64,000 nt of DNA from an archaeon (GTDB lineage Archaea > Nanobdellota > Nanobdellia > Pacearchaeales > GW2011-AR1), in contig JABHLR010000005.1 in NCBI GenBank assembly GCA_018693315.1, positions 11,975-75,974 of the forward strand, given 5' to 3'. The first letter of the stretch is position 1; each line of letters begins with the position of its first letter. The notes beneath the pieces were generated by a model, which was given only the letters and a program-made list of their open reading frames with translations, was not told the origin of the DNA and did no database searches. A program made the translations under genes and the position numbers. Positions 1 through 20,476 of the stretch are shown in pieces.

Positions 1-192
1 CAATGCTTATGAATCCGAGAACGGAGAGTATTGCCAGGATTGTTATGAATGCCTTTGATAATTGGGTTTCTCTGTAGTGTGAAGTTGTGGCGATCTCTTT
101 TTTTATCATGTTAGAATATGGGATGGGATGTTTATAAGTTTTTATTTTTGTATAATATATAAGCTTATATATTGAAATTTCTTTTATTTTTT

Positions 193-600
193 ATGTCTTA
201 TAAGTTTTTGGAGCACACGGCTGATGTGAAGTTTCGGGCGGAGGGTTCTAGTTTGGAGGAGATGTTTGTTGCTGCGGCTGCGGCTATGAACGAGACTGTT
301 CGTGGGGATATTAAGATTTTGGAGCAGGAGGAGAAGGGTTTTGAGGTTGAAGGGAAAGATCAAGTTGGGTTGTTGTATAATTTTTTGGAGGAGTTTTTGT
401 TTTTGTTGGATGCTGAGGATTTTTTGGTTGCTAAGGTTAAATCTGTTGAGATTGATGATAATAAGTTGAAGTGTGTTGTTGTTGGGGATGCGGCGAAGAA
501 TTATAAGTTTACGAATGATGTGAAGGCTGTGACTTATTCTGATATGTTTGTTAAAGAGAAAGGTGGTAAATTTGTTTGTGAAGTTGTGTTGGATGTATAA
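193..600 (+). CDS. Archease (RtcB activator)
   Basis: N-terminal MSYKFLEHTADVKFRAEG matches the archease HTAD signature. About 136 aa, directly upstream of rtcB. ATG at 193 is preferred over the TTG at 172 used by the ORF track. Confidence 0.75.
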   Translation: MSYKFLEHTADVKFRAEGSSLEEMFVAAAAAMNETVRGDIKILEQEEKGFEVEGKDQVGLLYNFLEEFLFLLDAEDFLVAKVKSVEIDDNKLKCVVVGDAAKNYKFTNDVKAVTYSDMFVKEKGGKFVCEVVLDV

Positions 601-609
601 TTTTATATA
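601..609 (+). promoter_or_regulatory. TATA-like box TTTTATATA, 22 nt upstream of the ATG at 631
   Basis: Archaeal TATA-like element at the spacing seen before most genes in this window. Implies a short-leader or leaderless mRNA. Confidence 0.45.
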
Positions 610-630
610 GTATTCTTGGTAATTGTTTTT

Positions 631-2436
631 ATGAAGAAGAGTGGTATGTCTGCGATTGTTGCTGTAGTTTTGATTGTCTTGGTTACTGTTGTTGCGGTTG
701 GGGTTATTTGGGGTATGGTTATTCCTATGATTCAACAGGATTCAGGATTGGATACTTATGATGCTGATGTTATCATTAAGACGGATGGTGGATATACTTA
801 TTTTGATGAAGAAAAGGGTGTTGCTTGCGTGCAAGTTAAGAGGATTGGCGAAGGTAGGGGTTTGAGAAGGATTGATGTTTTGTTTAGTTATGATGGGGCG
901 ACGCTTGATGATAATGGGAATTTTTCAGGGGAAGAGTTGCCTGACGTTAACGGGATGAAGCAGAAGTGTTTTGATTTGACTAATATTATTGTTCAGGGTG
1001 CTGATGGAAAATATATTGCTCCGGATTCTATAACAATTGTGCCGATTTATTTTGATGGATCAAAGGAGATTGAGGGTACTGTCTCGAAGATTGACAGAGG
1101 TAGGGGGCTTACTTCAGGGAAATTTCTTGATTATGGGAGCGCTGAATCTGTTGGGGGATGTGAAGATGATAGCGGATGTTCGGCGGGGGTTTGCTACAAT
1201 GAGGCGTGTTATTCGGATATTATTGTTGGTGGTAAGGTAGATAATTGTTGGCAGTTGCAGAATATTAATTTGGGTTTGACTGAGGATTATATTTTAATGA
1301 AGGATCTTAATTGCTCAATGACTTCTACCTGGAACGGTGGCGATGGGTTTGACCCGATTGGAAATGATCCAAATGTATTTGCTGGGACTTTTGATGGACA
1401 AGGTTTTACGATAAGTGATTTGTATATCGATAGGCCTTCGGAGAATTATGTTGGGTTGTTTGGTTATGTTAGTGGTGGTGAAATAAAAAATGTTGGATTA
1501 GTTGATGTGATTATTCTTGGGGCTAACGATGTTGGCGGATTAGTTGGAGACAGTCATCAGTCTTTAATAGATAACTCTTATGTTACTGGAGCTGTAACTG
1601 GATCAAATAGTCGTGTAGGTGGATTGGTGGGTTATAGTCGTACAGCCTCTTTGGTAAATAACTCTTATGCGGCTGTAGAGGTAAGCGGGACGAGGGGTTT
1701 TACTGGCGGATTAGTAGGATATAATTATTATTCATCGGTAGATAATTCTTATGCAACTGGAACTGTGTTGGGAAGAGTTGCGCGTACAGGTGGATTGGTG
1801 GGCTATAGTCGTGAAGCGGCAATAGATAATTCTTATGCAACTGGAACTGTAGTTGGTGAAGCATATGTGGGGGGATTGGCCGGAGGTAATCAGAGGTCAT
1901 CAATAAATAATTCTTATGCTAGTGGGAATGTGCGAGGAGTTGATTACATTATAGGAGGATTAGTAGGTTATAATTCTCAATCGACAATAAATAACTCCTA
2001 TGCAATCGGAAATGTAGTTGGTGCAAAATCTACGGGCGGATTATCTGGAAATAATCATCAGGCCGCAATAATTAATTCTTATGCTATTGGAGATGTAAGC
2101 GGAACGGAATATGTAGGTGGGCTTGTGGGTAGTGCTGATTTTTATCCACCAATAAATAATTCTTATGCAACAGGGGCTGTGTCTGGAAGTCGCTATGTTG
2201 GGGGATTGGTAGGGGGCAGTAGTAGTGGTTCCACTCTTATAATCAGTGATTCTTATTGGAATAATCATTATTATAATCCTTCTGTTGGTTGTGGGAATTC
2301 TTGTGACGCTGTTATAATGGCTATTAGTGACGATGAAGGTTGGTTTTATGTTGAGGCTAATGCCCCTATGAATGCATGGAGCAGTTCGGCCTGGACCTGG
2401 TCTGGAACGGGTTATCCAAAACTTATTTGGGAATGA
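631..2436 (+). CDS. Pilin-like (class III signal peptide) surface protein with tandem GLUG-motif repeats
   Basis: N-terminus MKKSGMSAIVAVVLIVLVTVVAVGVIWG is a short basic stretch plus hydrophobic segment typical of archaeal type IV pilin-like signals. The C-terminal half carries about 10 tandem repeats of roughly 40 aa (NSYATGxVxGxxxVGGLVGY) that resemble the GLUG motif. Confidence 0.7.
   Translation: MKKSGMSAIVAVVLIVLVTVVAVGVIWGMVIPMIQQDSGLDTYDADVIIKTDGGYTYFDEEKGVACVQVKRIGEGRGLRRIDVLFSYDGATLDDNGNFSGEELPDVNGMKQKCFDLTNIIVQGADGKYIAPDSITIVPIYFDGSKEIEGTVSKIDRGRGLTSGKFLDYGSAESVGGCEDDSGCSAGVCYNEACYSDIIVGGKVDNCWQLQNINLGLTEDYILMKDLNCSMTSTWNGGDGFDPIGNDPNVFAGTFDGQGFTISDLYIDRPSENYVGLFGYVSGGEIKNVGLVDVIILGANDVGGLVGDSHQSLIDNSYVTGAVTGSNSRVGGLVGYSRTASLVNNSYAAVEVSGTRGFTGGLVGYNYYSSVDNSYATGTVLGRVARTGGLVGYSREAAIDNSYATGTVVGEAYVGGLAGGNQRSSINNSYASGNVRGVDYIIGGLVGYNSQSTINNSYAIGNVVGAKSTGGLSGNNHQAAIINSYAIGDVSGTEYVGGLVGSADFYPPINNSYATGAVSGSRYVGGLVGGSSSGSTLIISDSYWNNHYYNPSVGCGNSCDAVIMAISDDEGWFYVEANAPMNAWSSSAWTWSGTGYPKLIWE
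1450..2262 (+). repeat. In-frame tandem coding repeats (about 117-120 nt unit, about 10 copies) encoding the GLUG-like NSYAxG...GGLVGY motif
   Basis: Periodic recurrence of aattcttatgc(a/t)actgg and ggtggattggtgggtta strings across the region. Confidence 0.7.
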
Positions 2437-2479
2437 TTTGATAGTTAGTTTTATATAATTTCTTTTGGTTTTTGTTGAT

Positions 2480-3880
2480 ATGGATTTGAAGAAGATTTCG
2501 GATGTTGAGTGGGAGATTCCTGTCGAGGATGGGATGTTGGTTCCTGGTCGGGTTTTTGCTAGCGAGGAGCTTATAAAAAATATTAAGGGTGATAAAAGTT
2601 TGGAGCAGATTAAGAATGTGGCGAAGTTGCCTGGGATTTTGAGGGCGAGTTATGCTATGCCGGATATGCATCAGGGTTATGGTTTTCCGATTGGGGGGGT
2701 TGCGGCTTTTGATGTTGATAAGGGCGTGATTAGTCCTGGGGGAGTTGGATATGATATTAATTGTTCGGTTCGATTGTTGAAGACTAATTTGACTGAGGCT
2801 GATTTGAAAGGAAAGGAGCAGGAGATCGCTCATTCTTTGTTTAGGACTATTCCTTCTGGAGTTGGTCGAGGTGGGGATTTGAAATTGAGTGATGATGAAT
2901 TGGATGAGGTTTTGGTTGGTGGTGCGCAGTGGGCTGTTGAGAAGGGTTATGGTAAGGATGATGATTGGAAGCATATTGAGGATGAGGGGAAATTGGGTGG
3001 AGCTGAGCCGAAGTTTGTTAGTGGTAGAGCCAAGGGTAGAGGTCGAGGGCAGTTAGGCAGCCTTGGAGCTGGGAATCATTTTTTGGATGTGTTGATTGTT
3101 GATGAGGTTTTTGATAAACGAGTTGCTGAGATTTTTGGATTGGAGAAGGGGCAGGTTGTGATGCTGATTCATTGTGGTTCGCGAGGATTGGGTCATCAGG
3201 TTGCTTCGGATTATATTAAGGCGATGGAGGACGAGTATGGGGTTCCTGAGTATGATCGTGAGTTGGTGAATGCTCCGATTAAGAGTGAGCTTGGGAGGAA
3301 GTATTTGGGTGCGATGAATTGTGCTGCGAATTTTGCCTATGCTAATAAGCAGTTGATTACGCATTTTGTTCGGGAGAATATGAAGAATTATTTTGCGGAT
3401 TTTGAGGCAGAGGTTGTTTATGATATTTGTCATAATATTGCTAAGTTTGAGAAATTTGAAGATAAGGAAGTTTTGGTTATGAGAAAGGGGGCTACTAGGA
3501 GTTTTGGTCCCGGGAGGGAAGAGATTCCTGAGGATTATAGGACAGTTGGGCAGCCTGTTTTGTTGCCTGGTTCGATGGGGACGGCGTCGTATGTTTTAGT
3601 TGGAACTAAAAAGGCGGAGGAGATTTCTTGGGGCTCAACTGCTCATGGTGCTGGTCGGGCAAAGAGTCGTACTCAGGCTAAGAGAGATATAACGTTTGAA
3701 GAGGCTAGGAAGGATATGGCTAAGCGTGGGATTGTTGTTGAGTTTGGCGGGCAGAAGGGAATGGTTGAAGAGTCACCGTTTTCGTATAAGGATGTTGATG
3801 AGGTTGTTAGGGTTAGTGATGAGGCTGGGATTGGGAAACGAGTTGCTAAGTTACGTCCTGTTATGGTTGTTATTGGATAA
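2480..3880 (+). CDS. rtcB: RNA-splicing ligase RtcB
   Basis: Conserved RtcB blocks GVGYDINCSVR, GAGNHFLDV, IHCGSRGLGHQVASDY and STAHGAGR. About 466 aa. ATG at 2480, in frame with the track ORF that begins at a TTG. Confidence 0.9.
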   Translation: MDLKKISDVEWEIPVEDGMLVPGRVFASEELIKNIKGDKSLEQIKNVAKLPGILRASYAMPDMHQGYGFPIGGVAAFDVDKGVISPGGVGYDINCSVRLLKTNLTEADLKGKEQEIAHSLFRTIPSGVGRGGDLKLSDDELDEVLVGGAQWAVEKGYGKDDDWKHIEDEGKLGGAEPKFVSGRAKGRGRGQLGSLGAGNHFLDVLIVDEVFDKRVAEIFGLEKGQVVMLIHCGSRGLGHQVASDYIKAMEDEYGVPEYDRELVNAPIKSELGRKYLGAMNCAANFAYANKQLITHFVRENMKNYFADFEAEVVYDICHNIAKFEKFEDKEVLVMRKGATRSFGPGREEIPEDYRTVGQPVLLPGSMGTASYVLVGTKKAEEISWGSTAHGAGRAKSRTQAKRDITFEEARKDMAKRGIVVEFGGQKGMVEESPFSYKDVDEVVRVSDEAGIGKRVAKLRPVMVVIG

Positions 3881-3913
3881 TTATATAAAGTGGTTTGTTT
3901 TTAGTAATTTAAG

Positions 3914-4297
3914 ATGGTGAAGTTTAGTTTAGAGGTTGGGAAGAAAGATTTGATGTGGGTTGTGCCTGTAATTTTAGTTTTGGGTGTTGGGTTTGCTTTT
4001 GCTTTTGGTGGGAATACTCCGGACGTTATGGGGCATAGTTCTGAGGAGATTGTAGTTGATGATGCGTTTTGTACTAAGATAATGGGGCATGAGTGTGGAG
4101 TTGATAATGAGGGTACTGCTACTTCTGGGGTTACGTCTCCCGCGTGTACTTTTTGTCAGACCTGTGGTGGTTCTTGGCCTAGTTATCAAGGGACCTTTGT
4201 AGACTATGAAAATATTGCCAGATATAGAGGGGCGAGTTGTTCGGGATCGTGGAATTTTAATGGCGCGCTTAATCATCCGCATTTGTGTTGTAAATAA
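3914..4297 (+). CDS. Small cysteine-rich secreted or membrane-anchored protein
   Basis: Hydrophobic N-terminal segment (WVVPVILVLGVGFAFAFGG) and at least 10 Cys. TATA-like ttatataaag about 25 nt upstream. Confidence 0.45.
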   Translation: MVKFSLEVGKKDLMWVVPVILVLGVGFAFAFGGNTPDVMGHSSEEIVVDDAFCTKIMGHECGVDNEGTATSGVTSPACTFCQTCGGSWPSYQGTFVDYENIARYRGASCSGSWNFNGALNHPHLCCK

Positions 4298-4352
4298 GTG
4301 CTCTGGAAAATTGGTTAGTTAATTATATAAAGTACTTTGTTGTCTGTTGGTT

Positions 4353-5708
4353 ATGAAAAAGTTTGGTGTGATTGTTTTTGCTTTAGTGTTAGTCTTTAGT
4401 TTCGGGTTTGTTGCGGCTGCAAGCTGTGGTGTTAGCGACGATAGTCAGTTGATTATGAGATTGTATCAGGAGAATAATTCTCATGGTGCTCTTTGGAATG
4501 ATACTAATGGTTATGATGTTGAGATTTGTGTGCCTGAGGGTGTGGATGTTGGAGATCATGTTTCTGGATTTAAGTTGTATTTGAGTGATGTGTTTAATGG
4601 GCATGTTTCTAATGTATCGGATGCTGTTTATGATCAGGTTGTTGGTTTTGGTGATAATTTAAATTGCGAATATGTTGAAGGTGATTGCCCTGAGGGATTT
4701 GGGTGTGTTGTGACTTTGTCCGCTGCTACTAATGCTCATCTTGCGACATGTGGTGCTGGTGCTTATTCAAATAAAGTTTGTTGTGGAGGTAGTGAAATTA
4801 TGTGGGCAGATATGAATGGCGATCTGATTAATAGTGCTGATTTGGGAGATACTGTTCAGATGATTAAGACTTATGCTGGCTCTGGAAGTTTTGATATTTT
4901 TGAGAATGATGATAGCCTTTTTGAGTTTCTTGTTGATGTTGATGATGAGATTAGGACTGGTCTTGTTGGTGATGATGTTGGTAGTAATTTGGTTGGGAAA
5001 TGGACGATAACTCGAGAAGATTTGGGAAGGACAGAGTATGGTGATTATACTGAATTTAGATTTATTGTCGACGGTGAAACAAGTGAGGCTTTGAATATTA
5101 ATCCAAAGAGGAATGATTCTAAGATGATTATTAGTATTGAGGATCCGGCTTGTGGGAGTTCTTTTGATGTTGGTGGTCCCTCTAGGCAGATTGGAGTTAT
5201 TGCTAATGATGTCGATGATGAGATTGTTGGGTCTTTGAGTGTTTTGGGTGTTGAGGTTGATACTTTTGGTAATGAGGAAGTTCTTTTGGATCATCCATTT
5301 GGTGTTCCTGGTAATGTGCAGATTATTGCTGAGGCGAATAATACTCGAGGGAAGATATCGCGGTCGGTTTCGAGTGTGATGGTTTTGGATAGGACTGTTG
5401 ATGGTAAATATTCTGCGGCTTGTATTGATAGGCCTAGGAATTTTGAGGATTTTGATGGGAATAGTATTGCGATTGATGCTTCGACGAGTCGGGCTGTTAG
5501 AGTTACTAATGGTGGGACTACAGCGACAGTGATTGTACCTGGAGATCCTGGTTTGAATTGGTATTGGACTTTTTCAAGAAGAGATGGTAATCATGAGATT
5601 AGGAATGTTTTAGGTGTTGCCGGAGAGGAGCTTATTGCTTATAATTTTACTGCTGAGTTTCCTAGTTCTGGAAATAATTGGGCTACGTTGGGATTGGATT
5701 TGGTTTAG
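4353..5708 (+). CDS. Secreted surface protein, paralog family A. The C-terminal roughly 300 aa module is shared with the giant protein ending at 12527.
   Basis: Sec-type signal peptide MKKFGVIVFALVLVFSFGFVAAASC. The C-terminal region EIMWADMNGD...NWATLGLDL is almost identical to the C-terminus of ORF 9003-12527. Confidence 0.7.
   Translation: MKKFGVIVFALVLVFSFGFVAAASCGVSDDSQLIMRLYQENNSHGALWNDTNGYDVEICVPEGVDVGDHVSGFKLYLSDVFNGHVSNVSDAVYDQVVGFGDNLNCEYVEGDCPEGFGCVVTLSAATNAHLATCGAGAYSNKVCCGGSEIMWADMNGDLINSADLGDTVQMIKTYAGSGSFDIFENDDSLFEFLVDVDDEIRTGLVGDDVGSNLVGKWTITREDLGRTEYGDYTEFRFIVDGETSEALNINPKRNDSKMIISIEDPACGSSFDVGGPSRQIGVIANDVDDEIVGSLSVLGVEVDTFGNEEVLLDHPFGVPGNVQIIAEANNTRGKISRSVSSVMVLDRTVDGKYSAACIDRPRNFEDFDGNSIAIDASTSRAVRVTNGGTTATVIVPGDPGLNWYWTFSRRDGNHEIRNVLGVAGEELIAYNFTAEFPSSGNNWATLGLDLV
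4791..5708 (+). repeat. Duplicated 3' gene module, copy 1; the partner copy is 11624-12527
   Basis: About 85-90% nt identity over the 5' part, rising to about 97% over the last 430 nt (ggtaatgtgcagatt...ttgggattggatttgg). Confidence 0.8.
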
Positions 5709-6023
5709 TGTTACCACTTAGAGATTACAGTAATAGAAAGTTTTTTAAATTGGATTTTGCTTGTGATTTTAACAATAAACAACCAAAGATAACTACGATC
5801 GACAACTCATCCTCTGGATGGCGACACACAACAAATTGTTATCAAAAATGAACTCAAAATGACTTCATTCGTACCCGAAATATCTCGTGATATTTTGTAG
5901 GTGAATGGAATACCTGTCATTAGGCGTTGATGCCTTATAATTGAGATTCATAGTTTTTCTATATAGTGTTAACCGGATTAGATGGTTTTGGTTCGGAATA
6001 CCTTCTTTTGAAAGGAGATTGGT

Positions 6024-6473
6024 ATGAATATGCAGTTTTTAGCGACGATGGTGTTGAACGAAAAGGTGATGACTTTCCTGCTCACCTATACCATTGTGTT
6101 CATGGCAGTGGTAGTTTTGACCTCTAAGATTTCATCAATTGTCGCGTTTGTTTCCGCGATTATCGTTCCTTGCTTGTTTTGGAACGGAACTTCTGAAGAG
6201 TTCGCGAGGTATAATCTCAGTTGTAAATTAGATGGCCAGGTCTTCTTCGTGTTCAATTGTATTCTTACGATTATAGGGGTGTTTTATTCTGCCTCCTGTT
6301 ATCGGATTGAGCAAGTAGATAAGAGGCTGGATGCTGCAGGCATTGAACGTCCCGAGACGATTTGGGAAAAGATAGGCCGAGCTTTGAGCTGCGATGAGGA
6401 TGCCGTTGATTCTGCGACTGGTTGGGCAGATAAATTGTCTGATTCGCAGACAGAGGTTAGTGAAGAACAATAA
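6024..6473 (+). CDS. Membrane protein (3-4 TM segments) with an acidic C-terminal tail, function unknown
   Basis: 149 aa ORF preceded by aaaggagattggtATG. Hydrophobic segments. Atypical composition. Confidence 0.5.
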   Translation: MNMQFLATMVLNEKVMTFLLTYTIVFMAVVVLTSKISSIVAFVSAIIVPCLFWNGTSEEFARYNLSCKLDGQVFFVFNCILTIIGVFYSASCYRIEQVDKRLDAAGIERPETIWEKIGRALSCDEDAVDSATGWADKLSDSQTEVSEEQ

Positions 6474-6528
6474 TTCTCGCTTTGTAATGCGAGATTCGAG
6501 TAAGAAACGTCTTTGAAAGGACAGAACG

Positions 6529-7200
6529 ATGAAACGTAGAATGATGATGACGATGCTTATTGGGGCTCTGTTGCTTGGAGCCGGAACTATCGAGACGGTC
6601 GAGGCGGCGGTTATTGTGAGCAGTTTTCAGGATTTGATTCCTGGAGTCGGCGAGTCGGGAGTTGTTGTAAATTCGATGCATATGGACATTAATTATGACA
6701 CTGGAGTTTTGGACAATCTGAAGGTCAGAGACCTGGACACTGGTGTCGATTCGGTAGTTGACGAAATTGGCGTTTGGCACCTTGGGCCCTATAAAAAGGT
6801 CTCAGGCGAATTCGTTTTTGGTGCTTTTGCCAACAACGACAACTGGGTTGCTGATATTGGCCCCGGACAAGCCGGTTGGCTTGATGGATATGCCTATGAC
6901 AGTGTTTTTTCCGAAGGGGAAAGTCCCGACGGTATGCTGTTGGTATTCGATCCTGATGGCGGACAGATGGCCTTGTCGTTTTCTACCGGTCCCCTGGTGT
7001 TTGATGCGAATACGACGCTGTACTGGTTGGACTCTCTCGAGCTTGATGGCTCGATTGGAGATGCCAGTGCTCTTGTGTTCTCATTTGGCCCGAGTGATGT
7101 CCGTATTCCGACTGCCGTCGTCGTACCGGAACCCGCAACCCTGACGCTACTCGCTGTAGGCGGACTGGTCGTTTTGCGCCGTCGCCGATCTCGGAAGTAA
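6529..7200 (+). CDS. Secreted protein with a PEP-CTERM-type C-terminal sorting signal
   Basis: Signal peptide MKRRMMMTMLIGALLLGAGTIETVEA. The C-terminus VPEPATLTLLAVGGLVVLRRRRSRK is a PEP motif followed by a TM helix and an Arg cluster. Confidence 0.6.
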   Translation: MKRRMMMTMLIGALLLGAGTIETVEAAVIVSSFQDLIPGVGESGVVVNSMHMDINYDTGVLDNLKVRDLDTGVDSVVDEIGVWHLGPYKKVSGEFVFGAFANNDNWVADIGPGQAGWLDGYAYDSVFSEGESPDGMLLVFDPDGGQMALSFSTGPLVFDANTTLYWLDSLELDGSIGDASALVFSFGPSDVRIPTAVVVPEPATLTLLAVGGLVVLRRRRSRK

Positions 7201-7228
7201 CGGAAGCCGCATGGGACGGATCCTCGTA

Positions 7229-7278
7229 AAAGGCTTTGTGTATAAGAGACGCTTTCTTATGCACAAGCCTTTTTTATT
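7229..7278 (+). terminator. Intrinsic-terminator-like hairpin followed by a T-tract
   Basis: aaaggctttgtgtataaga...tcttatgcacaagcctttttta forms a long imperfect stem and is followed by TTTTTTATTT. Confidence 0.5.
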
Positions 7279-7374
7279 TCTTAAAATGGTTACCAATGGT
7301 TACCAGTCTTTGGTGTGTGGTTTTTGGGGTGGTCGAGGGGCGCTCAAAATGTTTATAAAGTTGTGATATGTTGG

Positions 7375-8973
7375 ATGGATATGAGGTGGGCTGTAATTGT
7401 TTTGCTTGGAGTTTTTTTATTTAGTTTTGCTAGTGCATTAGATACTAGTGATTGTGATGATAGCATGGTAGCTTATTGGCAGTTTGAGGATAGTTTGGTA
7501 GATGGTTATGGGAGTCATGATGGAGGAAGTTGGAGCGGGGTTTCTGCTTATGGCGCAGTCTTAAGTACAGGTCTCGGTGCTTCTTTTGCTGGGAGTAGTA
7601 ATGTTACTATTGATGATGCAACTGATTTGAGGTTTTCTTCATCCTTCACAATTGAGATGTGGGTTGAGGCTACTGATTCTGGAATTATATTTGAAAAAGG
7701 AAATTATAAAATTGAATGGATAAAAGGTAGTGGTCTCCCAGCTCCTAATAATATTAGAGTGAGTGTCGGCAATGTAGTTCTTGATTCTGAAACTATAAGT
7801 GCTAGTGTTCCTCATTATGTTGCGGTGGTTTGGGATGCTGGGTCGGCGGAGAATTTGAGTCTTTATGTTGATGGTGTTTCTGTTAGTGGGACTTTGACGG
7901 GGGCGAGTGATGCGACAACTGATTTGGTTCTTGGTTATGGTTTTAAGGGTTTGATTGATGAGCTTGCGATTTATAGTAGGGCGCTTAGTGCTAGTGAGCT
8001 TGGTTTGCATCGTGGGCTTACGAATGCGGGGAAGGATTATTGTGATTTGTCTGGGGCTGGTGGGACTTCTGTTACTAGAACTGATTTTAGTGTTAATGGA
8101 TGTACTTTTGTTGGTTCTAATGGTCTCAATGTTGATGTGTCGAGGGGGAAGTGTTCTATTGATCCTAATTATGGTGAGTTTTATTGTGATGATGATCTTT
8201 TTCCTTGGATTACTTCGGAAGTTGGGTTAGGTTGTGCTATGGGAAATAGTGATTATGATACTACTAATAATGATAGTTTTTGTTGTCCGCATGGGTATTT
8301 CTGTAATGAGACTACTAGCGGTGGAGAGTTTAGGTGTAGTCTTCGTCCTGAGACTTGTGCGGAGCAGTTGACACAAACGGATTGTAATGCTGTTGATATT
8401 GGATGTATTTGGTTTGATGGAGTTTGTATTGAGGGACTTGGAGATTTTGATTGTGGTTATTACGAAAAGGGTGTGGATGCAGCGAACGAGGAGATTGCCT
8501 GTAATGCTGATAGGTTTAATCTTAGTAAGGTTGGTATAGGGACCGGGATGTGTGGTGAGACAATACAGTGTGCTGATGAGACGTATTCGATTCCTGTGGA
8601 TAATTGTGCTTGTGCGTGGTATGATGGTGCTGATGATGGAAAGAAGTGTCAGGTTAAGTTGGTTGCTATGCAGTTTTTCCATCAGACTGGTGTAGATCCA
8701 AATAGTTTTTCGTGTTCTAGCTCTTATGAACTTGGTCCTTGTGAGGGTGGGCAGCAGCTTGTGAACTGGACATCTCAGGTTCCTGTGGCGGATTTAATTG
8801 GGTTTACTTTAGGTGATGAGAATCTTACTAAATGCCTTACTGCTATAGGTTGTGATAGCGATAGTGATATTAGAAGTTGTGGTGAGCCGATAATTAAGTT
8901 GCCTGGGTTTAGTTTGTTTGCTTTTTTTGCGTCTTTGTTTATTGTCGGGATGTATTATTATTTTAGGGAATAA
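7375..8973 (+). CDS. Secreted Cys-rich LamG (concanavalin-like) domain protein with a PGF-CTERM-like tail
   Basis: Signal peptide MDMRWAVIVLLGVFLFSFASA. LamG_3-like block (FTIEMWVEA...LSLYVDGVSVSG...GLIDELAIYSRALSASEL). Many Cys. The C-terminus LPGFSLFAFFASLFIVGMYYYFRE is PGF plus a TM helix. TATA tttataaag 23 nt upstream. Confidence 0.7.
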   Translation: MDMRWAVIVLLGVFLFSFASALDTSDCDDSMVAYWQFEDSLVDGYGSHDGGSWSGVSAYGAVLSTGLGASFAGSSNVTIDDATDLRFSSSFTIEMWVEATDSGIIFEKGNYKIEWIKGSGLPAPNNIRVSVGNVVLDSETISASVPHYVAVVWDAGSAENLSLYVDGVSVSGTLTGASDATTDLVLGYGFKGLIDELAIYSRALSASELGLHRGLTNAGKDYCDLSGAGGTSVTRTDFSVNGCTFVGSNGLNVDVSRGKCSIDPNYGEFYCDDDLFPWITSEVGLGCAMGNSDYDTTNNDSFCCPHGYFCNETTSGGEFRCSLRPETCAEQLTQTDCNAVDIGCIWFDGVCIEGLGDFDCGYYEKGVDAANEEIACNADRFNLSKVGIGTGMCGETIQCADETYSIPVDNCACAWYDGADDGKKCQVKLVAMQFFHQTGVDPNSFSCSSSYELGPCEGGQQLVNWTSQVPVADLIGFTLGDENLTKCLTAIGCDSDSDIRSCGEPIIKLPGFSLFAFFASLFIVGMYYYFRE

Positions 8974-8982
8974 TTTAAATAG
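8974..8982 (+). promoter_or_regulatory. TTTAAATAG box upstream of the giant surface-protein gene
   Basis: The same 9-mer recurs at 12544, 17085 and 18591, each time 21-29 nt before an ATG. Confidence 0.45.
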
Positions 8983-9002
8983 GTAATTGGGTTGTGTTGT
9001 TT

Positions 9003-12000
9003 ATGAGAAAATTTGGTGTGTTAGCTTTGGTTTTGGTTTTTTTATTTGCGTTTAGTTTTGTTGCGGCGGGGGGTGGATCGCGTGATATAATTAGAAATGT
9101 TGGTTATGAGAATGTGCGTTCTGTAGATGGGGATGTTTGTACGGTAGATCTTTATTTTGATTCTTGTGTTTGGCCAGATTTGGTCATTACCAATCAATGG
9201 TCTAGTAAAACAATTGACGATATTCAAACGGACCCCGAGGGTGATGATCTTGGGTCATGTTGGGGTGGCCAGTTGGTGCACCAGGAAGGTCAGTATTATC
9301 CTGGGACTGCTGCAAGGTATTATGTTAGGGATTTAGATGTTTCTTGTGAGACTGCTGAGGATCATGTTTTTTATGTTAAGGGTACTTGTAGCGGCGGCGA
9401 GTATTGTTGGGAGAATGAAACACATTCAATAGATGTTAATTATGAGGTGCCCTTTATTCCGAGAGATGTTTGTGGTTTATCTGGGATGGTTGGTTTTTGG
9501 GATTTTAGTGGTACGTCTGATACGGTTGTAACTGACTTTAGCGGTAACGGGTTTAATGGAGTAATGGAAGATTCTTCTACTCGTGTTGCTGGAAAAGTTG
9601 GAGAAGCGTTAAGTTTTTCAGGAGCAGGGAGAGTTAATCTTGGTAATTCTGCTTTGTTGAATCCGGTGAGTGAACTGAGTATTGAATTTTTGATGAAAAC
9701 TGCGGATGATGCTGCAGATATTGGAGTTATGTTTTCGAGGCATTGGAGTTTGGATACTGGCCCTAATTGGGCTCAGAGATTGTCTGTCGTCGCTGGAAAG
9801 CTTAATTTTGGGTATGCTGGTGGGGTGAGTTTAACTGGGAATGCGGATGTTGCGAATGGTGTTTGGCACCATGTTGTTTTGACTCATGATGGATCTAGTT
9901 TTAAGCTTTATGTTGATGGGGTTTTGGACAGAAGCGTTCCGGCTCCCGGGAATTTTATTAGTTCTACTTCTAATACATATATAGGGAATTCTAATTATGC
10001 GGGGAATTATGGGATTGGTCATTATAATGGATTGATGGATGAGGTTGCGTTTTATAATCGGGCGTTGACTACTGCGGAAATTTCTGGGCATTATGTGAGT
10101 GTTAGCAATGGTGTTAATTATTGTACGCCTATTGAGGCTGAGAGCACTTGCAATGCTGTTAATTTGGATGTCTATAAAGTTGATCGAGCGACGTATGCGG
10201 TTCCACCTGTTGGTTTGTCTGATGATATTAATTATATGACCCTTGATCGTTCTGCTTCTGATTTGACTGCTTCTGATTTGGCGAATGTTGATGTTTTGAT
10301 TATTGCTGATACTTATTTGACAGGGGATCCAACTCATTCCTGCGATTCTTTGAATGAATGGTCTTGTGCCGCGAATTATGTGAATATTATAGGTAGTTTT
10401 GCGGAGTTAGATGTGATAAAGGATGCTTGGGAAGGTGGGATGGATGTTATTTTGATTGGTGATAATGGCGGTACTCCTGTTGGTAATTCAATAGCAAATT
10501 ATTGGTCAGCGACGGTTACAAACTATTTGACAGACACTATGTATTATACTAATTATGGTATTGCTTATGCTAATGCTCCCCTTGATCCTCCGACTCCAGA
10601 TTTGGCCCAGTTTCCTTTTTTGGAAGGTGTCCAATTCTCTTTGTCATGGGATGGTATCTGGTCTCCTGGGTTGATTTACAATGTGTATTCTCCTGCTAAG
10701 TGTGCTGCTCGTACTGTTATTGATGGATCTTGTATTGCTGCCTATTTACCAAGGGCTGCGGGTCGTGGTTATTTATTTGTTTCTGGTAATGCTAATGTTG
10801 GAAGTGATATTTATACTAAGAATCTGATTGAGAGGAGTTGTCAGGCTGAATGTGCTCTACCTAATTTAGAAGGGTATTGGAGTTTTAACGATGGTTCGAG
10901 TACGAGTGTTTCTGATTTGAGTGGGAATTTTAATAATGGAGTTGTTGTTGGTATGGGTGACGATGATTTGAGCAGTGGGGTATCTGGCTTGGCTTTAGAT
11001 TTTGACGGAGTGGAGGATTATGTTGAGGTGGCAAATAATGATAATTTGAAGTTGGAAAAATTTACGACGGCTGCTTGGTTTAAGGTTAATCGTTTGTTGC
11101 AAGCAGGGGATGAATCTTGGGTGATTTTAATGAGGGGAGAAGAGGTTCAATCTGGGAATTTGAATTATAATACTCAACTTATTAATAGTCCTACTTTGTT
11201 TGGTGAGGATAGTATGAAGCTGGCTTGTGGTTTTGAAAATACTGTTGATACTAACCACTGGATTATTTATGACGTGCATGATGCTTCTTTTGTTGACCGA
11301 TGGATTCATGTTGCTTGTACTTTGGACGGAAACGATTGGAAGATGTATATTGATGGGGAAGAGGTTTCAACTGATTTAAGGAATGGTCGTGAAGCAATAG
11401 CGAGCCTTGGCGGAACTAAACCTTCGCTGATTACTTCTCCTTTTTATGTTGGGGGGGCTTTTTCCAGTGATGGTGATGAAGGAGGAGTAGATGACGTGGT
11501 TAGCTTTTTCGATGGTTCGATAGATGAGGTTTCTGTTTGGAGCAAAGCTTTGACTGCGGTGGAGGTTAAGAATTTGTACGATAAAGGAACGGCTGGACTT
11601 GGGTATTGTGATGTTGCTCCTGTGAGTGAGATTATGTGGGCAGATATGAATGGTGATGAGATTGTTAGTGCTGATCTTGGGGATACTGTTCAGATGATTA
11701 AGACTTATGCTGGTTCTGGAAGTTTTGATATTTTTGAGGAGGATGATACTGTTACAGATCCTTTTGATGATGAGATTAGGAATGATATTGCCGGCGTTGG
11801 TGTTGGTAGTAATTTGATCGGGAAGTGGACCATAACTCAGGACGATTTAAGGAAGACTCTTGGGGATTATGAGGAGTTTAGGTTTATTGTCGACGGTGAG
11901 ACGAGCGAGGCTTTGAGTATTAATCCAAGGAGAGATGATGATAGGATGGTTGTTGGTGTTGAGAATCCGGCTTGTGGTACTCATTTTAACCAAGGAGATG

Positions 12001-12527: not shown

Positions 12528-12543
12528 TTTCTTGGGGGAATGA

Positions 12544-12552
12544 TTTAAATAG
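12544..12552 (+). promoter_or_regulatory. TTTAAATAG box
   Basis: Conserved 9-mer 21 nt upstream of the ATG at 12573. Confidence 0.4.
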
Positions 12553-12572
12553 TGGTTTGTGTTATATTGTTT

Positions 12573-12845: not shown

Positions 12846-12883
12846 TTTGAAATGTTTATAAAGTATTGTTGCTAGGTTGTTAT

Positions 12884-17113: not shown

Positions 17114-18589
17114 ATGAAAAAGAGAGTATGGAGTTCTTGCGAAAACCATTCACGTATTTTTCGCGGGGCTCAAAAAAGTGGGATGTCTGCGATTGTTGCG
17201 ACGGTGTTGGTTGTCTTGATTGTTGTTGTTACTGTCGGAGTTGTGTGGGGCCTTGTTCTTCCTGTGGTTCAAGATGGGGTGGAAACTGAAATTTCTGATG
17301 TTAGAATTTCTATTGATACTGGTGGAGGTTACACTTTTTTTAATGAAAGTACCGGTGAAGCTTGTGTCCAGGTGAGGAGGTCTAGTGATAACACAAATTT
17401 AGTCAGAATTGATGTTATATTTTCTTTCGGTGGCGATACGTTTGTTGGTAATTTTACTGGTGCTGAGATCCCAGGTGCGAATGAAGCTAATACAGAATGT
17501 TTTGATCTGAGTGATTTTACTAATGAAGACGGGAGCCAAAGATTTCCAGATTCAGTAGAGCTTTCTCCCATTTTTCTTGATGGTGGCAGAGAGGTTGTTG
17601 GAAGCAGAACGCCTAAGGTTGTTAAAATAAAAAATGGAACTAGTGTTGGTGTTGATTCTGATCCACAGAGGATTGATGATGGAGAAGATGACGAGGTTGA
17701 TAACTGTAGGACTTTAGATGTTGCAGGAGGAGAATATAGGTTAGTAAAAGATATTATTAGTGATTCTACTTGTTTTATAATAGTCGCAGAGGGCATTAGC
17801 TTGGATTTAAATGGATTTAATATAACTGGTGAGGGCGATGGGTATGGTGTTTCTGTTGAGGCAGATGGTGCAACTGTTAAGAATGGCGAGATTTATAGTT
17901 TTAATAATGGCATTTATTTGAATGGGGTTAGTGGAAATAATTTGATGAACATTAATGTTGAATCTAGTTATGGAAGTGGTATATACCTTGTCTCAAGTTC
18001 TAATAATAATCTCACAGCTATAGTTTCGAATTCGAATGGGGCGGATGGAATATCTTTTTCTGGAAGTTCCGGGAATATTCTTAGAGATAGTACTACGAAT
18101 TCGAATGGGGCGAGGTTGAGTGGCGGTGGCGGGGTGATGATTTTTGGGGGTTCGAATAATATCTTGATGGATTTAATCTCTGTTTATAATCAGGGTTCAT
18201 CGTCAGATGGAATTTATATAATGAGGAGTCATTCTAATGTGTTGTTGGATATTAACGCAAGTTATAATGGACAGGTGCCAGGGGGTTTCCCTAGAGATAA
18301 TAAAGCAGATGGTGTTCAAATTAAAGAAGGCAATTCTAACAATCTCACTAGGGTTATCGCTATGTTTAATGGCCACCATGGGCTTTATTTTGAAGGTAAG
18401 AACGATGAGTCCCTGATAGTTTCCAGTTTGGTTGCTGATAGCACTTTTTGTGATAATAATGATGATATAGTGGATGTTAAATGTAAGGATTACCATATTT
18501 ATCAAAATCATGGTTTTGGCAATAAGTATGATTCTTTTAGGAGTTCCTGCGGAGAGCTTTTTGGAACTGATGCAGTTCCTTGTGATTAA
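17114..18589 (+). CDS. Pilin-like (class III signal peptide) protein fused to a parallel beta-helix (pectin-lyase-like) domain
   Basis: N-terminus ...QKSGMSAIVATVLVVLIVVVTVGVVWGLVLP. Repetitive NNxxTxIxSNSNGADGISFSG / NSNGARLSGGGG beta-helix-like repeats. Confidence 0.7.
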   Translation: MKKRVWSSCENHSRIFRGAQKSGMSAIVATVLVVLIVVVTVGVVWGLVLPVVQDGVETEISDVRISIDTGGGYTFFNESTGEACVQVRRSSDNTNLVRIDVIFSFGGDTFVGNFTGAEIPGANEANTECFDLSDFTNEDGSQRFPDSVELSPIFLDGGREVVGSRTPKVVKIKNGTSVGVDSDPQRIDDGEDDEVDNCRTLDVAGGEYRLVKDIISDSTCFIIVAEGISLDLNGFNITGEGDGYGVSVEADGATVKNGEIYSFNNGIYLNGVSGNNLMNINVESSYGSGIYLVSSSNNNLTAIVSNSNGADGISFSGSSGNILRDSTTNSNGARLSGGGGVMIFGGSNNILMDLISVYNQGSSSDGIYIMRSHSNVLLDINASYNGQVPGGFPRDNKADGVQIKEGNSNNLTRVIAMFNGHHGLYFEGKNDESLIVSSLVADSTFCDNNDDIVDVKCKDYHIYQNHGFGNKYDSFRSSCGELFGTDAVPCD

Positions 18590-18619: not shown

Positions 18620-20476
18620 ATGAAAAAGAAAGGTGTTTCTGCGATTGTCGCGACTGTGTTGGTTGTTTTGATTGCTGTTGTCGGTATTGGATTGATTTGG
18701 GGTGTTGTTTTGCCGGTGATTGATGAAGGGTTTTCGGCTCAAGAGTATGATATAGATTTGGTTATTGATGACAGTGCCGGTTATACTTATTATGATGCCG
18801 ATAATAAGGTTGCATGTGTGCAGATTAAAAGAGGGGCTGATGAGTTTAATTTGTCGCGTATTGATGTGTTTTTTTATTTTAATGGAACTTCTTATGGTTC
18901 TAATTTTACTGGAAGCGATGTTCCTGGCCCAAATGAAATCAGAAAGAAATGTTTTAATCTTGAGGACTATGGGGCTCCGAATTCTATAGAAATAGCGTCG
19001 GTGATTTGGGATGATGGAAAAGAAATTATTGGGAAGGTTAGCTCGGCTGTCGCGAGAGTTAAACTTGGTAGTTATCCTGGGACTCCAACTGATATTGCTA
19101 AGTTGGATAAGCCGAAGAAGCAGAATAATAATGGGCCCGCTCCTGTCGTGTGCGTTGGTGGTTGTGATGATGGGAATGATTGTACTGTAGATGTTTGTAC
19201 TGATGGCAGTTGTTCTAATGATGATGTCGCGGATGGTACGGTTTGTACTGATGGTGGTTCTTGTTTGTCTGGGACATGTATTCTTCCTGATTGGATTGAG
19301 ATATCAGATTGTTCTTCTGTTGTGTTGAATGAAGAAGGTGCAACTTATATTCTTGTTAAGGATATTGATAGTACCGGTACGTGTTTACTTGTTGGCGCTG
19401 ATGGGATTACCGTTGATCTTAATGGGTTTGAGATTAGGGGTGAGGCCGAGTGGGATAGTTATGGTGTTATTATAGATGGTCAGGATAATACTATTGTGAG
19501 AAATGGAGGAATTTATAATTATGATACCGGTGTTTTTCTTGACTGGGGGTCAGAATCGAATACAGTAGATAATATGGTAATAAGTGATAATTTAGACCTT
19601 GGGGTGCACATTCTTGAAAGCACCAATAACAATATTATAAACAATATTATAGACGATGTTTGGGGCGGTTTTGGTTATGGAGTGTATGTTGAGGGAGCTT
19701 CTTCGGGATATAATAATATTATAAACAACACAATAGAAGATGTTTCTGCTGTGGGTGTGTCTATTGAATCTTCTGGCAATAAGGTAATAAATAATACTAT
19801 CATATCGTGTTCTGTTGGAATTAGGTCTTTCGGCGGGAGTAGTCTCGAGATTTTTAATAACAAGTTGCAGGATAATGGTGGGCGTGGAATTGATTTTTGG
19901 GGCGATAGTGATGGAAGTATTATCGGTAATTATATTCATTCGAATGGCCTTGGGATTGATTCTTCTACATCAGGTAATGTCTATATTGAAGATAATATAT
20001 TGAACGCTAATGGTCAGGGTGGTTTTTACATTTCTACTTTTAGTCCTAATACTTATGTTATTAAGAATAATTCTATTGTTGGCGATGGTTTTAATACCGG
20101 AATAAGTGTATCTTCTTCTATGGATGAGGCAACTATATCTATTGAGGATAACGTTGTTAATTCTAGTAGTGTTGGTATTTTTGTAGAACAAGGGCGTGGC
20201 TTTAGTGTTTATAATAATATTCTGGAGTCTAATGATGTTGGTTTGAAATTAGCTGGTTGGTCTTCTGGGGGTAATCATGATATTTCAGGTAATCATGTTT
20301 GTGGCAATGATGAGGATTTTGTTTGTGATAGGCATTTTTTGGGAGGTTTTTATTATAATATAGCAGATGTCTATGGAAGTGGAAATACTTTTGGTGGCGA
20401 TAGCGGAGATGTTGTTGCGTGTCCGGTAAATAGTTGGCCAGATTATGATAATGGAGATTATGGTTATTGTTCTTAA
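18620..20476 (+). CDS. Pilin-like (class III signal peptide) protein fused to a parallel beta-helix domain; tandem paralog of 17114-18589
   Basis: N-terminus MKKKGVSAIVATVLVVLIAVVGIGLIWGVVLP. Cys/Asp-rich linker, then NNIINNIIDD...NNIINNTIEDV...NKVINNTI beta-helix repeats. Confidence 0.7.
   Translation: MKKKGVSAIVATVLVVLIAVVGIGLIWGVVLPVIDEGFSAQEYDIDLVIDDSAGYTYYDADNKVACVQIKRGADEFNLSRIDVFFYFNGTSYGSNFTGSDVPGPNEIRKKCFNLEDYGAPNSIEIASVIWDDGKEIIGKVSSAVARVKLGSYPGTPTDIAKLDKPKKQNNNGPAPVVCVGGCDDGNDCTVDVCTDGSCSNDDVADGTVCTDGGSCLSGTCILPDWIEISDCSSVVLNEEGATYILVKDIDSTGTCLLVGADGITVDLNGFEIRGEAEWDSYGVIIDGQDNTIVRNGGIYNYDTGVFLDWGSESNTVDNMVISDNLDLGVHILESTNNNIINNIIDDVWGGFGYGVYVEGASSGYNNIINNTIEDVSAVGVSIESSGNKVINNTIISCSVGIRSFGGSSLEIFNNKLQDNGGRGIDFWGDSDGSIIGNYIHSNGLGIDSSTSGNVYIEDNILNANGQGGFYISTFSPNTYVIKNNSIVGDGFNTGISVSSSMDEATISIEDNVVNSSSVGIFVEQGRGFSVYNNILESNDVGLKLAGWSSGGNHDISGNHVCGNDEDFVCDRHFLGGFYYNIADVYGSGNTFGGDSGDVVACPVNSWPDYDNGDYGYCS

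What the first reader, a model, noticed from the sequence alone, without database searches (positions are those of the whole stretch)
631..2436. Archaeal pilin-type signal peptide fused to about 10 tandem GLUG-like repeats
A class III (prepilin-like) N-terminus is followed by a long domain and then roughly 117-120 nt in-frame tandem repeats encoding NSYATGxVxG...GGLVGY. A prepilin-like signal on a very large passenger domain may mark a tip or minor pilin adhesin. The repeat copy number is likely to vary.
Basis: partly seen in the sequence, partly recalled or inferred. Interest (0 to 1): 0.55.

Follow-up and report, generated by a model that had tools for sequence, protein, structure and literature searches.

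The report
Archaeal pilin fused to GLUG beta-helix
This gene from an uncultured marine DPANN-like archaeon encodes a pilin-type anchor joined to a 400-residue GLUG beta-helix, which makes it an archaeal counterpart of bacterial "modular pilins" and a likely attachment protein; it is interesting but not a new kind of system.

Summary
Residues 1-160 belong to a large, apparently unnamed family. There are 754 clusters, and the module is always N-terminal. Its consensus start is M-x-K-[RK]-G|ISAIVATVLIILITVAA, an archaeal class III signal. AlphaFold predicts a 34-residue helix plus a beta-sandwich. Stand-alone 150-180 aa versions lie directly upstream of a type IV pilus ATPase/platform locus in a relative. 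The same locus lies 5-10 kb upstream of this gene.

Residues 206-601 are a GLUG right-handed beta-helix (Pfam E=4e-35, pLDDT 93). The best structural matches are the beta-helix domains of IgA1 proteases, but no protease domain is present.

Three corrections:
- The repeat period is 81-90 nt (27-30 aa), not 117-120 nt. There are 9 units.
- The units are only 58-74% identical in DNA, TRF finds nothing, and all full-length copies have the same repeat count. Copy-number variation is therefore unsupported.
- The target has Ser, not Lys/Arg, at position -2 (KKSG|MS), so a strict FlaFind-type rule may miss it.

No prepilin peptidase was found in the 73 kb visible. The family swaps passengers (NosD-type beta-helix, LamG, dockerin, GLUG). 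The best reading is a modular pilin-like adhesin.

The parts
602..609 (+). TATA-box-like TTTATATA, 21 nt before ATG 631; implies a leaderless mRNA and fixes the start codon
   Evidence: TTTA[TA]ATA lies exactly 21 nt before an ATG in 9 of 16 motif-ORF pairs in the window, including both paralogs; the promoter and 5' region are conserved among the three paralogs.
631..645 (+). Class III-type signal n-region MKKSG (aa 1-5); predicted cleavage after G5
   Evidence: in 251 family members -1 is G 94% / A 6%, -2 is R/K 89% (S 3%) and -3 is K 93%. The target is the K-S-G variant; the NCBI record MBT7102289.1 uses this start (601 aa).
646..744 (+). Hydrophobic N-terminal alpha-helix of the pilin module (aa 6-38)
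   Evidence: AF2 helix 5-38 with block pLDDT up to 97. S7, A11, L14, L17, W27 and P32 are invariant or nearly so; aligned in register with a Pilin_N-type pilin.
769..1107 (+). Beta-sandwich head of the pilin module (aa 47-159), with conserved Cys66 and Cys113
   Evidence: strands 47-155 with pLDDT 85-94; 754 clusters at 50% identity share this module, always at the N-terminus. ACVQV and KCF motifs are conserved.
1108..1245 (+). Low-confidence linker with four cysteines (C177, C183, C188, C193), aa 160-205
   Evidence: pLDDT 46-58 for aa 160-205. Cys positions.
1246..1488 (+). N-terminal cap/head of the GLUG beta-helix module (aa 206-286: ...LMKDLNCSMTSTWNGGDGFDPIG...FDGQGFTISDLYIDR...YVGLFGY)
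   Evidence: the consensus of 60 GLUG proteins has the same head (Y.L.NDID.S.T..WN.G.GF.PIG...F.G.FDG.G..I..L.I.R...VGLFG); pLDDT about 98.
1489..2247 (+). Nine GLUG coils of 27-30 aa (81-90 nt) each, aa 287-539; one beta-helix turn per unit
   Evidence: Pfam Glug E=4.3e-35, 8 matches; unit table and identities; three strands per unit, pLDDT 97-99. Foldseek top hits are 3n6z, 7uvk and 6xjb.
2248..2433 (+). C-terminal cap of the GLUG module (aa 540-601: DSYWN...W.W.....YPKL)
   Evidence: the family consensus ends S.WD...W.F...W.....YP.L; lower pLDDT of 64-93.
17114..18589 (+). Paralog with the same pilin module, a 23-aa leader (MKKRVWSSCENHSRIFRGAQKSG|MSAIVATV) and a NosD-type beta-helix passenger
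   Evidence: HMM E=7e-59; Beta_helix/NosD.
18620..20476 (+). Paralog with a canonical MKKKG|VSAIVATV site and a NosD-type beta-helix passenger
   Evidence: HMM E=3e-61.

Best explanation
The gene encodes a bimodular, pilin-like surface protein of an uncultured marine archaeon.

Proposed mechanism:
1. It is transcribed as a leaderless mRNA from its own TATA box and is targeted to the membrane by a class III signal (MKKSG|MSAIVAVV...).
2. A prepilin or preflagellin-type peptidase removes the five-residue n-region (inferred).
3. The remaining hydrophobic alpha-helix and its beta-sandwich head form a pilin module. This module is homologous to the 150-180 aa stand-alone pilins of the type IV pilus system encoded 5-10 kb upstream (one ATPase and two platform genes).
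4. Through that helix the protein is taken up by the pilus machinery as a minor, probably tip-located, subunit. Alternatively it is held at the membrane surface.
5. Either way, a flexible cysteine-rich linker exposes a rigid nine-coil GLUG right-handed beta-helix of about 400 residues, which acts as a ligand-binding or adhesive module (inferred).

Shown here: the architecture, family membership, predicted folds and genomic association with pilus genes. Inferred: cleavage, incorporation into a filament and adhesion.
For: Pilin module:
- HMMER against 1.8 billion representatives finds 754 clusters, with the module always N-terminal and protein lengths of 76-1171 aa.
- The processing-site consensus is K-[RK]-G|I-S.
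- The helix positions are highly conserved, more than a plain membrane anchor needs.
- TIGR02537, UpsA and Pilin_N all match just below cut-off, in register.
- hhalign to a Pilin_N-type pilin gives 87% probability, E=4e-6.
- AF2 predicts a helix at 5-38 plus a beta-sandwich.
- Source annotations of homologues include 'flagellin-like' and 'archaellin/type IV pilin N-terminal domain-containing protein'.

Genomic context:
- Stand-alone homologues P0282 and P0283 lie in a row of small genes directly upstream of a T2SSE-T2SSF-T2SSF-...-DUF87 locus.
- The syntenic locus lies at L001 1-4911, 5-10 kb upstream of the target.

Passenger:
- Glug E=4e-35.
- The AF2 model has pLDDT 93.4 and pTM 0.93.
- Foldseek matches the IgA1 protease beta-helices 3n6z, 7uvk and 6xjb. 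Those are described as beta-helices in PMC7695701.

Modularity:
- Passengers in 96 family members are NosD/Beta_helix (26), LamG (23), MopE (8), fibrinogen-like (5) and Glug (2).
- The closest modules, at 52-65% identity, carry different passengers.

Precedents:
- Bacterial modular pilins include the architecture IPR012902-IPR011493 (PMC8179133). That IPR011493 is GLUG is from memory.
- The bacterial protein P0106 has G|FTLIE plus GLUG.
- Archaeal class III signals occur on non-pilin proteins (PMC2910488).
Against: - The target has Ser at -2. Reviews state that a charged -2 residue is critical for archaeal prepilin peptidases (PMC4371748).
- Pilin_N (16.4 against 25.2 bits) and TIGR02537 (12.1 against 20) are below threshold.
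- Foldseek of the N-module returned only generic Ig-V-like hits, with no pilin in the top 50.
- No A24-type peptidase was seen in the window or in the 9.3 kb upstream.
- The gene sits outside the pilus operon, between archease and RtcB.
- No experimental data exist for any member of the family.
- The GLUG motif has no demonstrated binding function.
Confidence: 0.65

Rival explanations
1. The protein is a membrane-anchored surface protein that is never polymerised. The N-terminal helix, cleaved or not, simply tethers the protein in the membrane, as proposed for the Sulfolobus bindosome sugar-binding proteins. The beta-sandwich acts as a stalk that lifts the GLUG beta-helix above the membrane or S-layer.
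For: - The gene has its own promoter and lies outside the pilus operon.
- The family has many paralogs with bulky passengers of up to 1171 aa, which could not all fit in a filament body.
- Ser at -2 may weaken peptidase recognition (PMC4371748).
- Archaeal class III signals on non-filament proteins are documented (PMC2910488).
Against: - The strong conservation of the K-[RK]-G|IS site and of specific helix positions exceeds what a simple anchor needs.
- Stand-alone, pilin-sized members sit next to the pilus ATPase.
- Bacterial modular pilins with equally bulky modules are incorporated into filaments (PMC8179133).
Confidence: 0.27
2. The protein is a secreted or surface enzyme, either a protease of the IgA1-protease (M26/Zmp) type or a glycan-active beta-helix enzyme, rather than an adhesin.
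For: - NCBIfam gives weak ZmpA/ZmpD matches.
- The PDB sequence and fold matches are to IgA1 proteases.
- Lower-ranked Foldseek hits include polysaccharide lyases and tailspikes.
Against: - All matches are confined to the beta-helix domain. In 6xjb the match covers chain residues 172-325 only.
- There is no M26 peptidase domain in Pfam and no HExxH motif; the protein has only 3 His.
- Lyase and hydrolase hits have E>0.01 and TM-scores below 0.3.
Confidence: 0.05
3. There is a gene-model artefact. The true start is ATG 646 (MSAIV...), as in the 596-aa database entry, so there is no charged n-region and no class III signal.
For: Several automated gene calls (P0001, P0385) start at Met6.
Against: - ATG 631 lies at the canonical 21-nt distance from a TATA box, as in 9 of 16 motif-ORF pairs in the window.
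- The MKK[KS]G n-region and its upstream DNA are conserved in both paralogs and across the family.
- NCBI annotates 601 aa.
Confidence: 0.03

Closest known systems
Bacterial modular type IV pilins (S. sanguinis PilB/PilC; Raynaud et al. 2021, PMC8179133)
   Same: - An N-terminal pilin module is joined by a linker to a grafted module that is not specific to pilus biology.
- Many alternative passengers occur, including LamG-type lectin domains.
- The architecture pilin-IPR011493 (GLUG, identity from memory) is listed six times in their Dataset S1. The bacterial protein P0106 has exactly that architecture.
   Different: - The pilin module here is archaeal. It has no IPR012902/N_methyl motif, no Glu5 and an Ig-like beta-sandwich head, and it is a family of its own.
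- That survey searched only the bacterial motif IPR012902, so it would not have recovered archaeal pilins such as this one.
- Nothing has been shown experimentally here.
Archaeal type IV pilins / class III signal peptide proteins (Pfam Pilin_N PF07790, TIGR02537; FlaFind positives)
   Same: - It has a short charged n-region with Gly at -1, followed by a hydrophobic helix of about 30 residues and a beta-sandwich.
- Homologues are associated with the ATPase and two platform genes ('system 1'-like, bioRxiv 10.64898/2026.04.22.720090).
   Different: - It scores below both curated cut-offs.
- Position -2 is Ser.
- It carries a 400-aa passenger.
- The beta-sandwich part has no Pfam model.
GLUG beta-helix domains of Gram-positive IgA1 metalloproteases (6XJA/6XJB, 7UVK) and BACOVA_03286 (3N6Z)
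   Same: It shares the same repeat motif and the same right-handed beta-helix fold (PMC7695701).
   Different: - There are no protease middle or C-terminal domains.
- The beta-helix here is the terminal passenger of a pilin-type anchor.
Sulfolobus bindosome substrate-binding proteins with class III signals
   Same: These are also large non-pilin extracellular proteins that carry a class III signal and depend on a pilus-like assembly system (PMC2910488).
   Different: The passenger here is a beta-helix rather than a solute-binding protein, and a distinct conserved pilin head domain is present.

Membership tests
Archaeal class III signal peptide / type IV pilin | G, A or S at position -1 of the processing site, within the first ~30 residues | tested here: met
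   G5 aligns with the family's G (94%) / A (6%).
Archaeal class III signal peptide / type IV pilin | Charged residue at -2 (rule as summarised in PMC4371748) | tested here: not met
   The target has S4 at -2 and K at -3 and -4. 89% of the family has K/R at -2, and 8 of 251 share K-S-G. An alternative cut, KKS|G, would satisfy the rule but disagrees with the family alignment.
Archaeal class III signal peptide / type IV pilin | Hydrophobic H-domain immediately after the site, forming a long N-terminal alpha-helix followed by a globular beta domain | tested here: met
   There are 29 hydrophobic residues. AF2 predicts a helix at 5-38 and a beta-sandwich at 47-155.
Archaeal class III signal peptide / type IV pilin | Curated HMM above threshold (PF07790 Pilin_N; TIGR02537) | tested here: not met
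   The scores are 16.4 against 25.2 bits and 12.1 against 20 bits. Family members reach 17-18.5 bits for TIGR02537. hhalign to a Pilin_N-type pilin gives 87% probability, E=4e-6.
Archaeal class III signal peptide / type IV pilin | Assembly ATPase and platform protein encoded in the genome; pilin homologues linked to them | tested here: met
   T2SSE plus two T2SSF genes lie at L001 1-2373. Stand-alone homologues lie directly upstream of the syntenic locus in another contig.
Archaeal class III signal peptide / type IV pilin | Dedicated prepilin peptidase (PibD/FlaK/EppA, family A24) and actual cleavage | tested here: inconclusive
   None was found in 73 kb. The only GxGD membrane protein is an SPP/presenilin homologue. 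The rest of the genome could not be reached. Cleavage itself cannot be tested with these tools.
Archaeal class III signal peptide / type IV pilin | Structural similarity of the head domain to solved archaeal pilins | tested here: inconclusive
   The Foldseek top 50 are Ig-V-like domains with TM about 0.3. The profile search of PDB gave only 3j1r (Iho670 core) at E=1.6.
GLUG repeat beta-helix (Pfam PF07581) | Multiple GLUG motif matches above the gathering score | tested here: met
   118.1 bits against 20.5, with 8 matches.
GLUG repeat beta-helix (Pfam PF07581) | Right-handed parallel beta-helix fold as in solved GLUG domains | tested here: met
   AF2 gives pLDDT 93.4. Foldseek gives 3n6z at E=6e-6 and 7uvk, 6xjb at probability 1.00.
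IgA1 metalloprotease (M26, ZmpA-D) | Zinc metalloprotease domain with HExxH | tested here: not met
   There is no M26 Pfam hit. NCBIfam ZmpA scores 20 bits against a cut-off of 3000. The protein has only 3 His and no HExxH.
Bacterial modular pilins (IPR012902 + extra module) | N-terminal prokaryotic N-methylation motif (G|FTLxE) | tested here: not met
   There is no N_methyl hit and no Glu5. The resemblance is functional and architectural only.
Hypervariable tandem-repeat (contingency) locus | Near-identical DNA repeats and length polymorphism among copies | tested here: not met
   TRF is negative. DNA identity between units is 58-74%. All full-length copies have the same number of repeat units.

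The most novel reading that the evidence does not exclude
The N-terminal module defines an undescribed, DPANN-centred family of archaeal 'plug-and-display' pilins. In this reading one conserved pilin carrier, duplicated together with its promoter and leader, is recombined with interchangeable binding cassettes (GLUG or NosD beta-helices, LamG lectins, dockerins, fibrinogen-like domains). The resulting genes insert at varying genomic sites; here the insertion lies between archease and RtcB, which are adjacent in a relative. The family would then supply the host-recognition repertoire of pilus-dependent episymbiotic archaea.
Probability: 0.3. Interest if true: 0.65.

Novelty: new variant of a known kind. 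Interest (0 to 1): 0.45.

Why it matters
DPANN archaea are thought to live attached to host cells, and how they recognise hosts is largely unknown. In the analogous ultrasmall bacteria (Saccharibacteria), type IV pili drive episymbiosis (PMC9894109).

This family has hundreds of members. Each carries a conserved pilin carrier and one of several swappable lectin, beta-helix or dockerin passengers. That gives concrete, testable candidates for archaeal attachment factors, and it extends the 'modular pilin' principle from bacteria to archaea.

The case also shows that current models (Pilin_N, TIGR02537) miss this family, that a strict -2 rule may miss some of its members, and that several automated gene calls clip the signal peptide.

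Tried and rejected
- **Tandem repeats.** Tandem Repeats Finder on 1-6000 found no array in the repeat region. I therefore rejected the slippage-prone repeat reading.
- **Homologues of aa 1-201.** The word-indexed homology search found one hit only. The exhaustive HMMER search was needed to find the family.
- **PDB profile search with the family alignment.** It matched passenger-like columns (4qvs, ricin, laminin G). The only pilin hit was 3j1r at E=1.6.
- **Foldseek of the N-module.** It gave only antibody-like Ig domains. This is uninformative for pilin membership.
- **Reaching the rest of the genome to look for a prepilin peptidase.**
  - An exact-pattern scan of GTDB genomes found nothing.
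  - The metagenome scan returned only a 3.6-kb marine contig.
  - The search for related loci failed with the alignment.
  - With the single protein it found no relatives.
- **Regex search for GxGD-type motifs.** It found only the SPP homologue.
- **FlaFind rule.** The FlaFind paper (PMC1797317) is not held. I took the rule from the review PMC4371748 instead.
- **IgA1-protease membership.** Rejected, because no catalytic domain is present.
- **Start at ATG 646.** Rejected on promoter spacing and family conservation.
- **Literature on GC skew in DPANN.** The search found nothing relevant.
Full report
**What is there.** The window carries one ORF on the + strand from ATG 631 to the stop at 2434-2436, 601 aa. 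It lies between an archease gene (172-600) and RtcB (2480-3880). The same protein is in NCBI as MBT7102289.1, 'hypothetical protein [archaeon]', 601 aa. Several automated gene calls start five codons later, giving 596 aa.

The start at 631 is the better one, for three reasons:
- A TTTATATA box ends 21 nt upstream of it. The same 21-nt spacing holds for 9 of 16 TATA-ORF pairs in the window, including both paralogs, as expected for leaderless archaeal mRNAs.
- The upstream DNA and the MKK..G n-region are conserved among the paralogs.
- The n-region is conserved across the family.

**The repeats.** Pfam Glug (PF07581) matches at 118 bits, E=4.3e-35, in eight stretches. By eye and by script there are nine units at aa 287-539 (nt 1489-2247), each 27-30 aa, which is 81-90 nt.
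- The units are 41-60% identical in protein and 58-74% in DNA.
- Tandem Repeats Finder reports nothing there.
- The longest exact repeat is 28 nt.
- Full-length cluster members are 596, 601 and 596 aa. One variant differs by two substitutions only. The identical protein is on 13 contigs from several samples.

There is no evidence for copy-number variation.

**The passenger.** Aligned with 59 GLUG proteins, residues 206-601 are one recurrent module. It has a head (Y.L.NDID.S.T..WN.G.GF.PIG...FDG.G..I..L.I.R...VGLFG), the GLUG coils and a cap (SYW...W.W.....YP.L).
- AlphaFold2 predicts a beta-solenoid with three strands per coil, pLDDT 93.4 and pTM 0.93.
- The best Foldseek matches in the PDB are BACOVA_03286 (3n6z, E=6e-6) and the IgA1 proteases 7uvk, 6xjb and 6xja. 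These agree with the sequence match to 6xjb residues 172-325.
- In those enzymes this region is a right-handed beta-helix that gates the active site (PMC7695701).
- The target has no protease domain and no HExxH motif. It shares the fold, not the enzymology.

**The N-terminal module.** The word-indexed search found a single homologue, P0121. That protein has the same first 160 residues at 65% identity, starts MKKG|ISAIVATILI, and ends in a dockerin-like tail instead of GLUG.
- The exhaustive HMMER search found 754 clusters (278 at E<=1e-10). The module is always at the N-terminus, in proteins of 76 to 1171 aa.
- Their N-termini are strikingly uniform: M-x-K-[RK]-G|I-S-A-I-V-A-T-V-L-I-I-L-I-T-V-A-A. 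In 251 members, -1 is G 94% / A 6%, -2 is R/K 89%, -3 is K 93% and +1 is I 87%.
- This is the layout of an archaeal class III signal: G/A/S at -1, a charged residue at -2, and a processing site before the hydrophobic domain (PMC4371748, PMC2910488).
- The target is one of a small K-S-G subclass (8 of 251), as is its paralog at 17114.
- Helix positions S7, A11, L14, L17, W27 and P32 are invariant or nearly so. That is more than a simple anchor would require.
- AlphaFold2 predicts a helix at 5-38 followed by a beta-sandwich at 47-155 with pLDDT 85-94, then a disordered 4-Cys linker.
- Curated models fall just short. Pilin_N scores 16.4 against 25.2 bits. TIGR02537 scores 12-18.5 against 20 bits across members. 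The UpsA N-terminus also matches weakly.
- A profile of the module aligns in register with a neighbouring Pilin_N-type pilin of a relative, KKG|LSPVIATILLIA, which itself scores 25.1 bits. The hhalign probability is 87%, E=4e-6.
- Foldseek of the module gave only generic Ig-like hits. The PDB profile search gave only the Iho670 core at E=1.6.

**Context.**
- The source contig is ENA ERZ23491529 scaffold_21, 220 kb. Window position 1 corresponds to L001 position 9356.
- About 5-10 kb upstream of the target it carries a T2SSE ATPase, a 55-aa gene, two T2SSF platform genes, two small proteins with pilin-like N-termini (KKKG|AAHFEM and NKRG|WMRILE) and a HerA/DUF87 ATPase.
- This resembles the 'system 1' layout with a split platform, described for methanogens and DPANN (bioRxiv 10.64898/2026.04.22.720090).
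- In another contig the syntenic locus is directly preceded by six small genes. Two of them, P0282 and P0283, are stand-alone versions of the N-module. The profile search finds many such 150-180 aa proteins. Some are named 'flagellin-like protein' or 'archaellin/type IV pilin N-terminal domain-containing protein', from Pacearchaeota or Nanoarchaeota.
- In a relative (L008), archease and RtcB are adjacent and two stand-alone pilins follow RtcB. The GLUG gene is therefore an insertion into a conserved block.
- The window holds two further paralogs in tandem, at 17114-18589 and 18620-20476. They have the same promoter, leader and module but NosD-type beta-helix passengers.
- No A24 prepilin peptidase is visible in the 73 kb. 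The only GxGD membrane protein is an SPP/presenilin homologue. Attempts to reach more of the genome failed.

**Modularity.**
- Among 96 family members the passengers are Beta_helix/NosD (26), Laminin_G_3 (23), MopE (8), fibrinogen-like (5), DUF285 and others.
- Only two carry Glug, the target and a weak case, P0175.
- The closest modules, at 52-65% identity, carry NosD, LamG or dockerin passengers.
- Conversely, none of the other 119 listed GLUG homologues shows this module in its first 70 residues. Most show Sec-type or lipoprotein-like signals or N-terminal transmembrane helices by eye. One bacterial protein, P0106, is a G|FTLIE pilin fused to GLUG.

**Interpretation.** The best-supported reading is an archaeal equivalent of the bacterial modular pilins: a pilin carrier with a grafted binding module, presented by a type IV filament, most probably at its tip (PMC8179133). 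That survey lists a pilin-IPR011493 architecture six times (that IPR011493 is GLUG is from memory), but it searched only the bacterial N-methylation motif.
- Shown here: the architecture, family membership, predicted folds and linkage of the family to pilus genes.
- Inferred: cleavage after Gly5, incorporation into a filament and adhesion.
- Main rival: the helix merely anchors the protein at the cell surface, in the manner of the bindosome.
- Minor rivals: an enzymatic role, and a clipped gene model. Both are poorly supported.

**Verdict.** The object is a new variant of a known kind. It is a rare GLUG-bearing member of a large, apparently undescribed DPANN family of modular pilin-like proteins. 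Interest is moderate (0.45).

Noticed in passing
window 1-64000 (also L008): There is an extreme strand composition asymmetry: G 27%, C 12.5%, T 36%, A 24%. At third codon positions, + strand genes have GC skew +0.69 and AT skew -0.58. Genes on the - strand show -0.57 and +0.64 on their own coding strand. The + strand is therefore G+T-loaded at synonymous sites whatever the gene orientation, with no switch over 64 kb. This is much stronger than I would expect from ordinary replication skew (from general knowledge). The relative L008 also shows a skew of 0.25. A literature search found no description of this.
   Followed up: partly
window, e.g. 602-609, 2450-2457, 8974, 12544, 17085, 18591, 22878, 54440, 60577; - strand 49093: A TTTA[TA]ATA box lies exactly 21 nt (range 21-24) upstream of the ATG for most motif-ORF pairs. 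This implies predominantly leaderless transcripts and offers a simple way to correct start codons in this genome.
   Followed up: partly
window 17114-18589 and 18620-20476: Two tandem paralogs carry the same promoter, leader and pilin module fused to NosD-type right-handed beta-helices. The first has a 54-nt insertion that encodes a 23-aa leader (MKKRVWSSCENHSRIFRGAQKSG). The WSSCENHS motif of that leader recurs in other family members, P0136 and P0252.
   Followed up: partly
L001 1-6040 (upstream of the window; window position 1 = L001 9356): This is a type IV pilus-like locus: T2SSE ATPase, a 55-aa gene, two T2SSF genes, a 242-aa protein (KKKG|AAHFEM, Glu at +5), a 145-aa protein (NKRG|WMRILE), a HerA/DUF87 ATPase and a 359-aa secreted protein. 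It is syntenic with the locus next to stand-alone pilins P0282 and P0283.
   Followed up: partly
window 172-3880 versus L008 7219-9083: Archease and RtcB are adjacent in a relative (35-nt gap) but are split by the GLUG pilin gene here. In the relative, two stand-alone pilin genes follow RtcB.
   Followed up: yes
window 28102-28644: A 180-aa protein has a different class III-like start (MYGKRGQG|MSLTTIILIVLGLAV) and no family match. A 525-aa and a 192-aa protein with hydrophobic N-termini follow it.
   Followed up: no
window 3914-15565: This is a surface-protein island. It holds small TM and Sec-signal proteins, a 223-aa protein with a PEP-CTERM-like C-terminus (23 bits, unusual for an archaeon), two Laminin_G_3 proteins (552 and 1177 aa) and an 899-aa PKD protein.
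   Followed up: no
window 23405-24361 (-): A nine-TM presenilin/SPP-type GxGD aspartyl protease (PF06550, E=2e-18) is encoded here and is conserved in the relative L008. It is not a prepilin peptidase, but it is the only GxGD membrane protease in view.
   Followed up: partly
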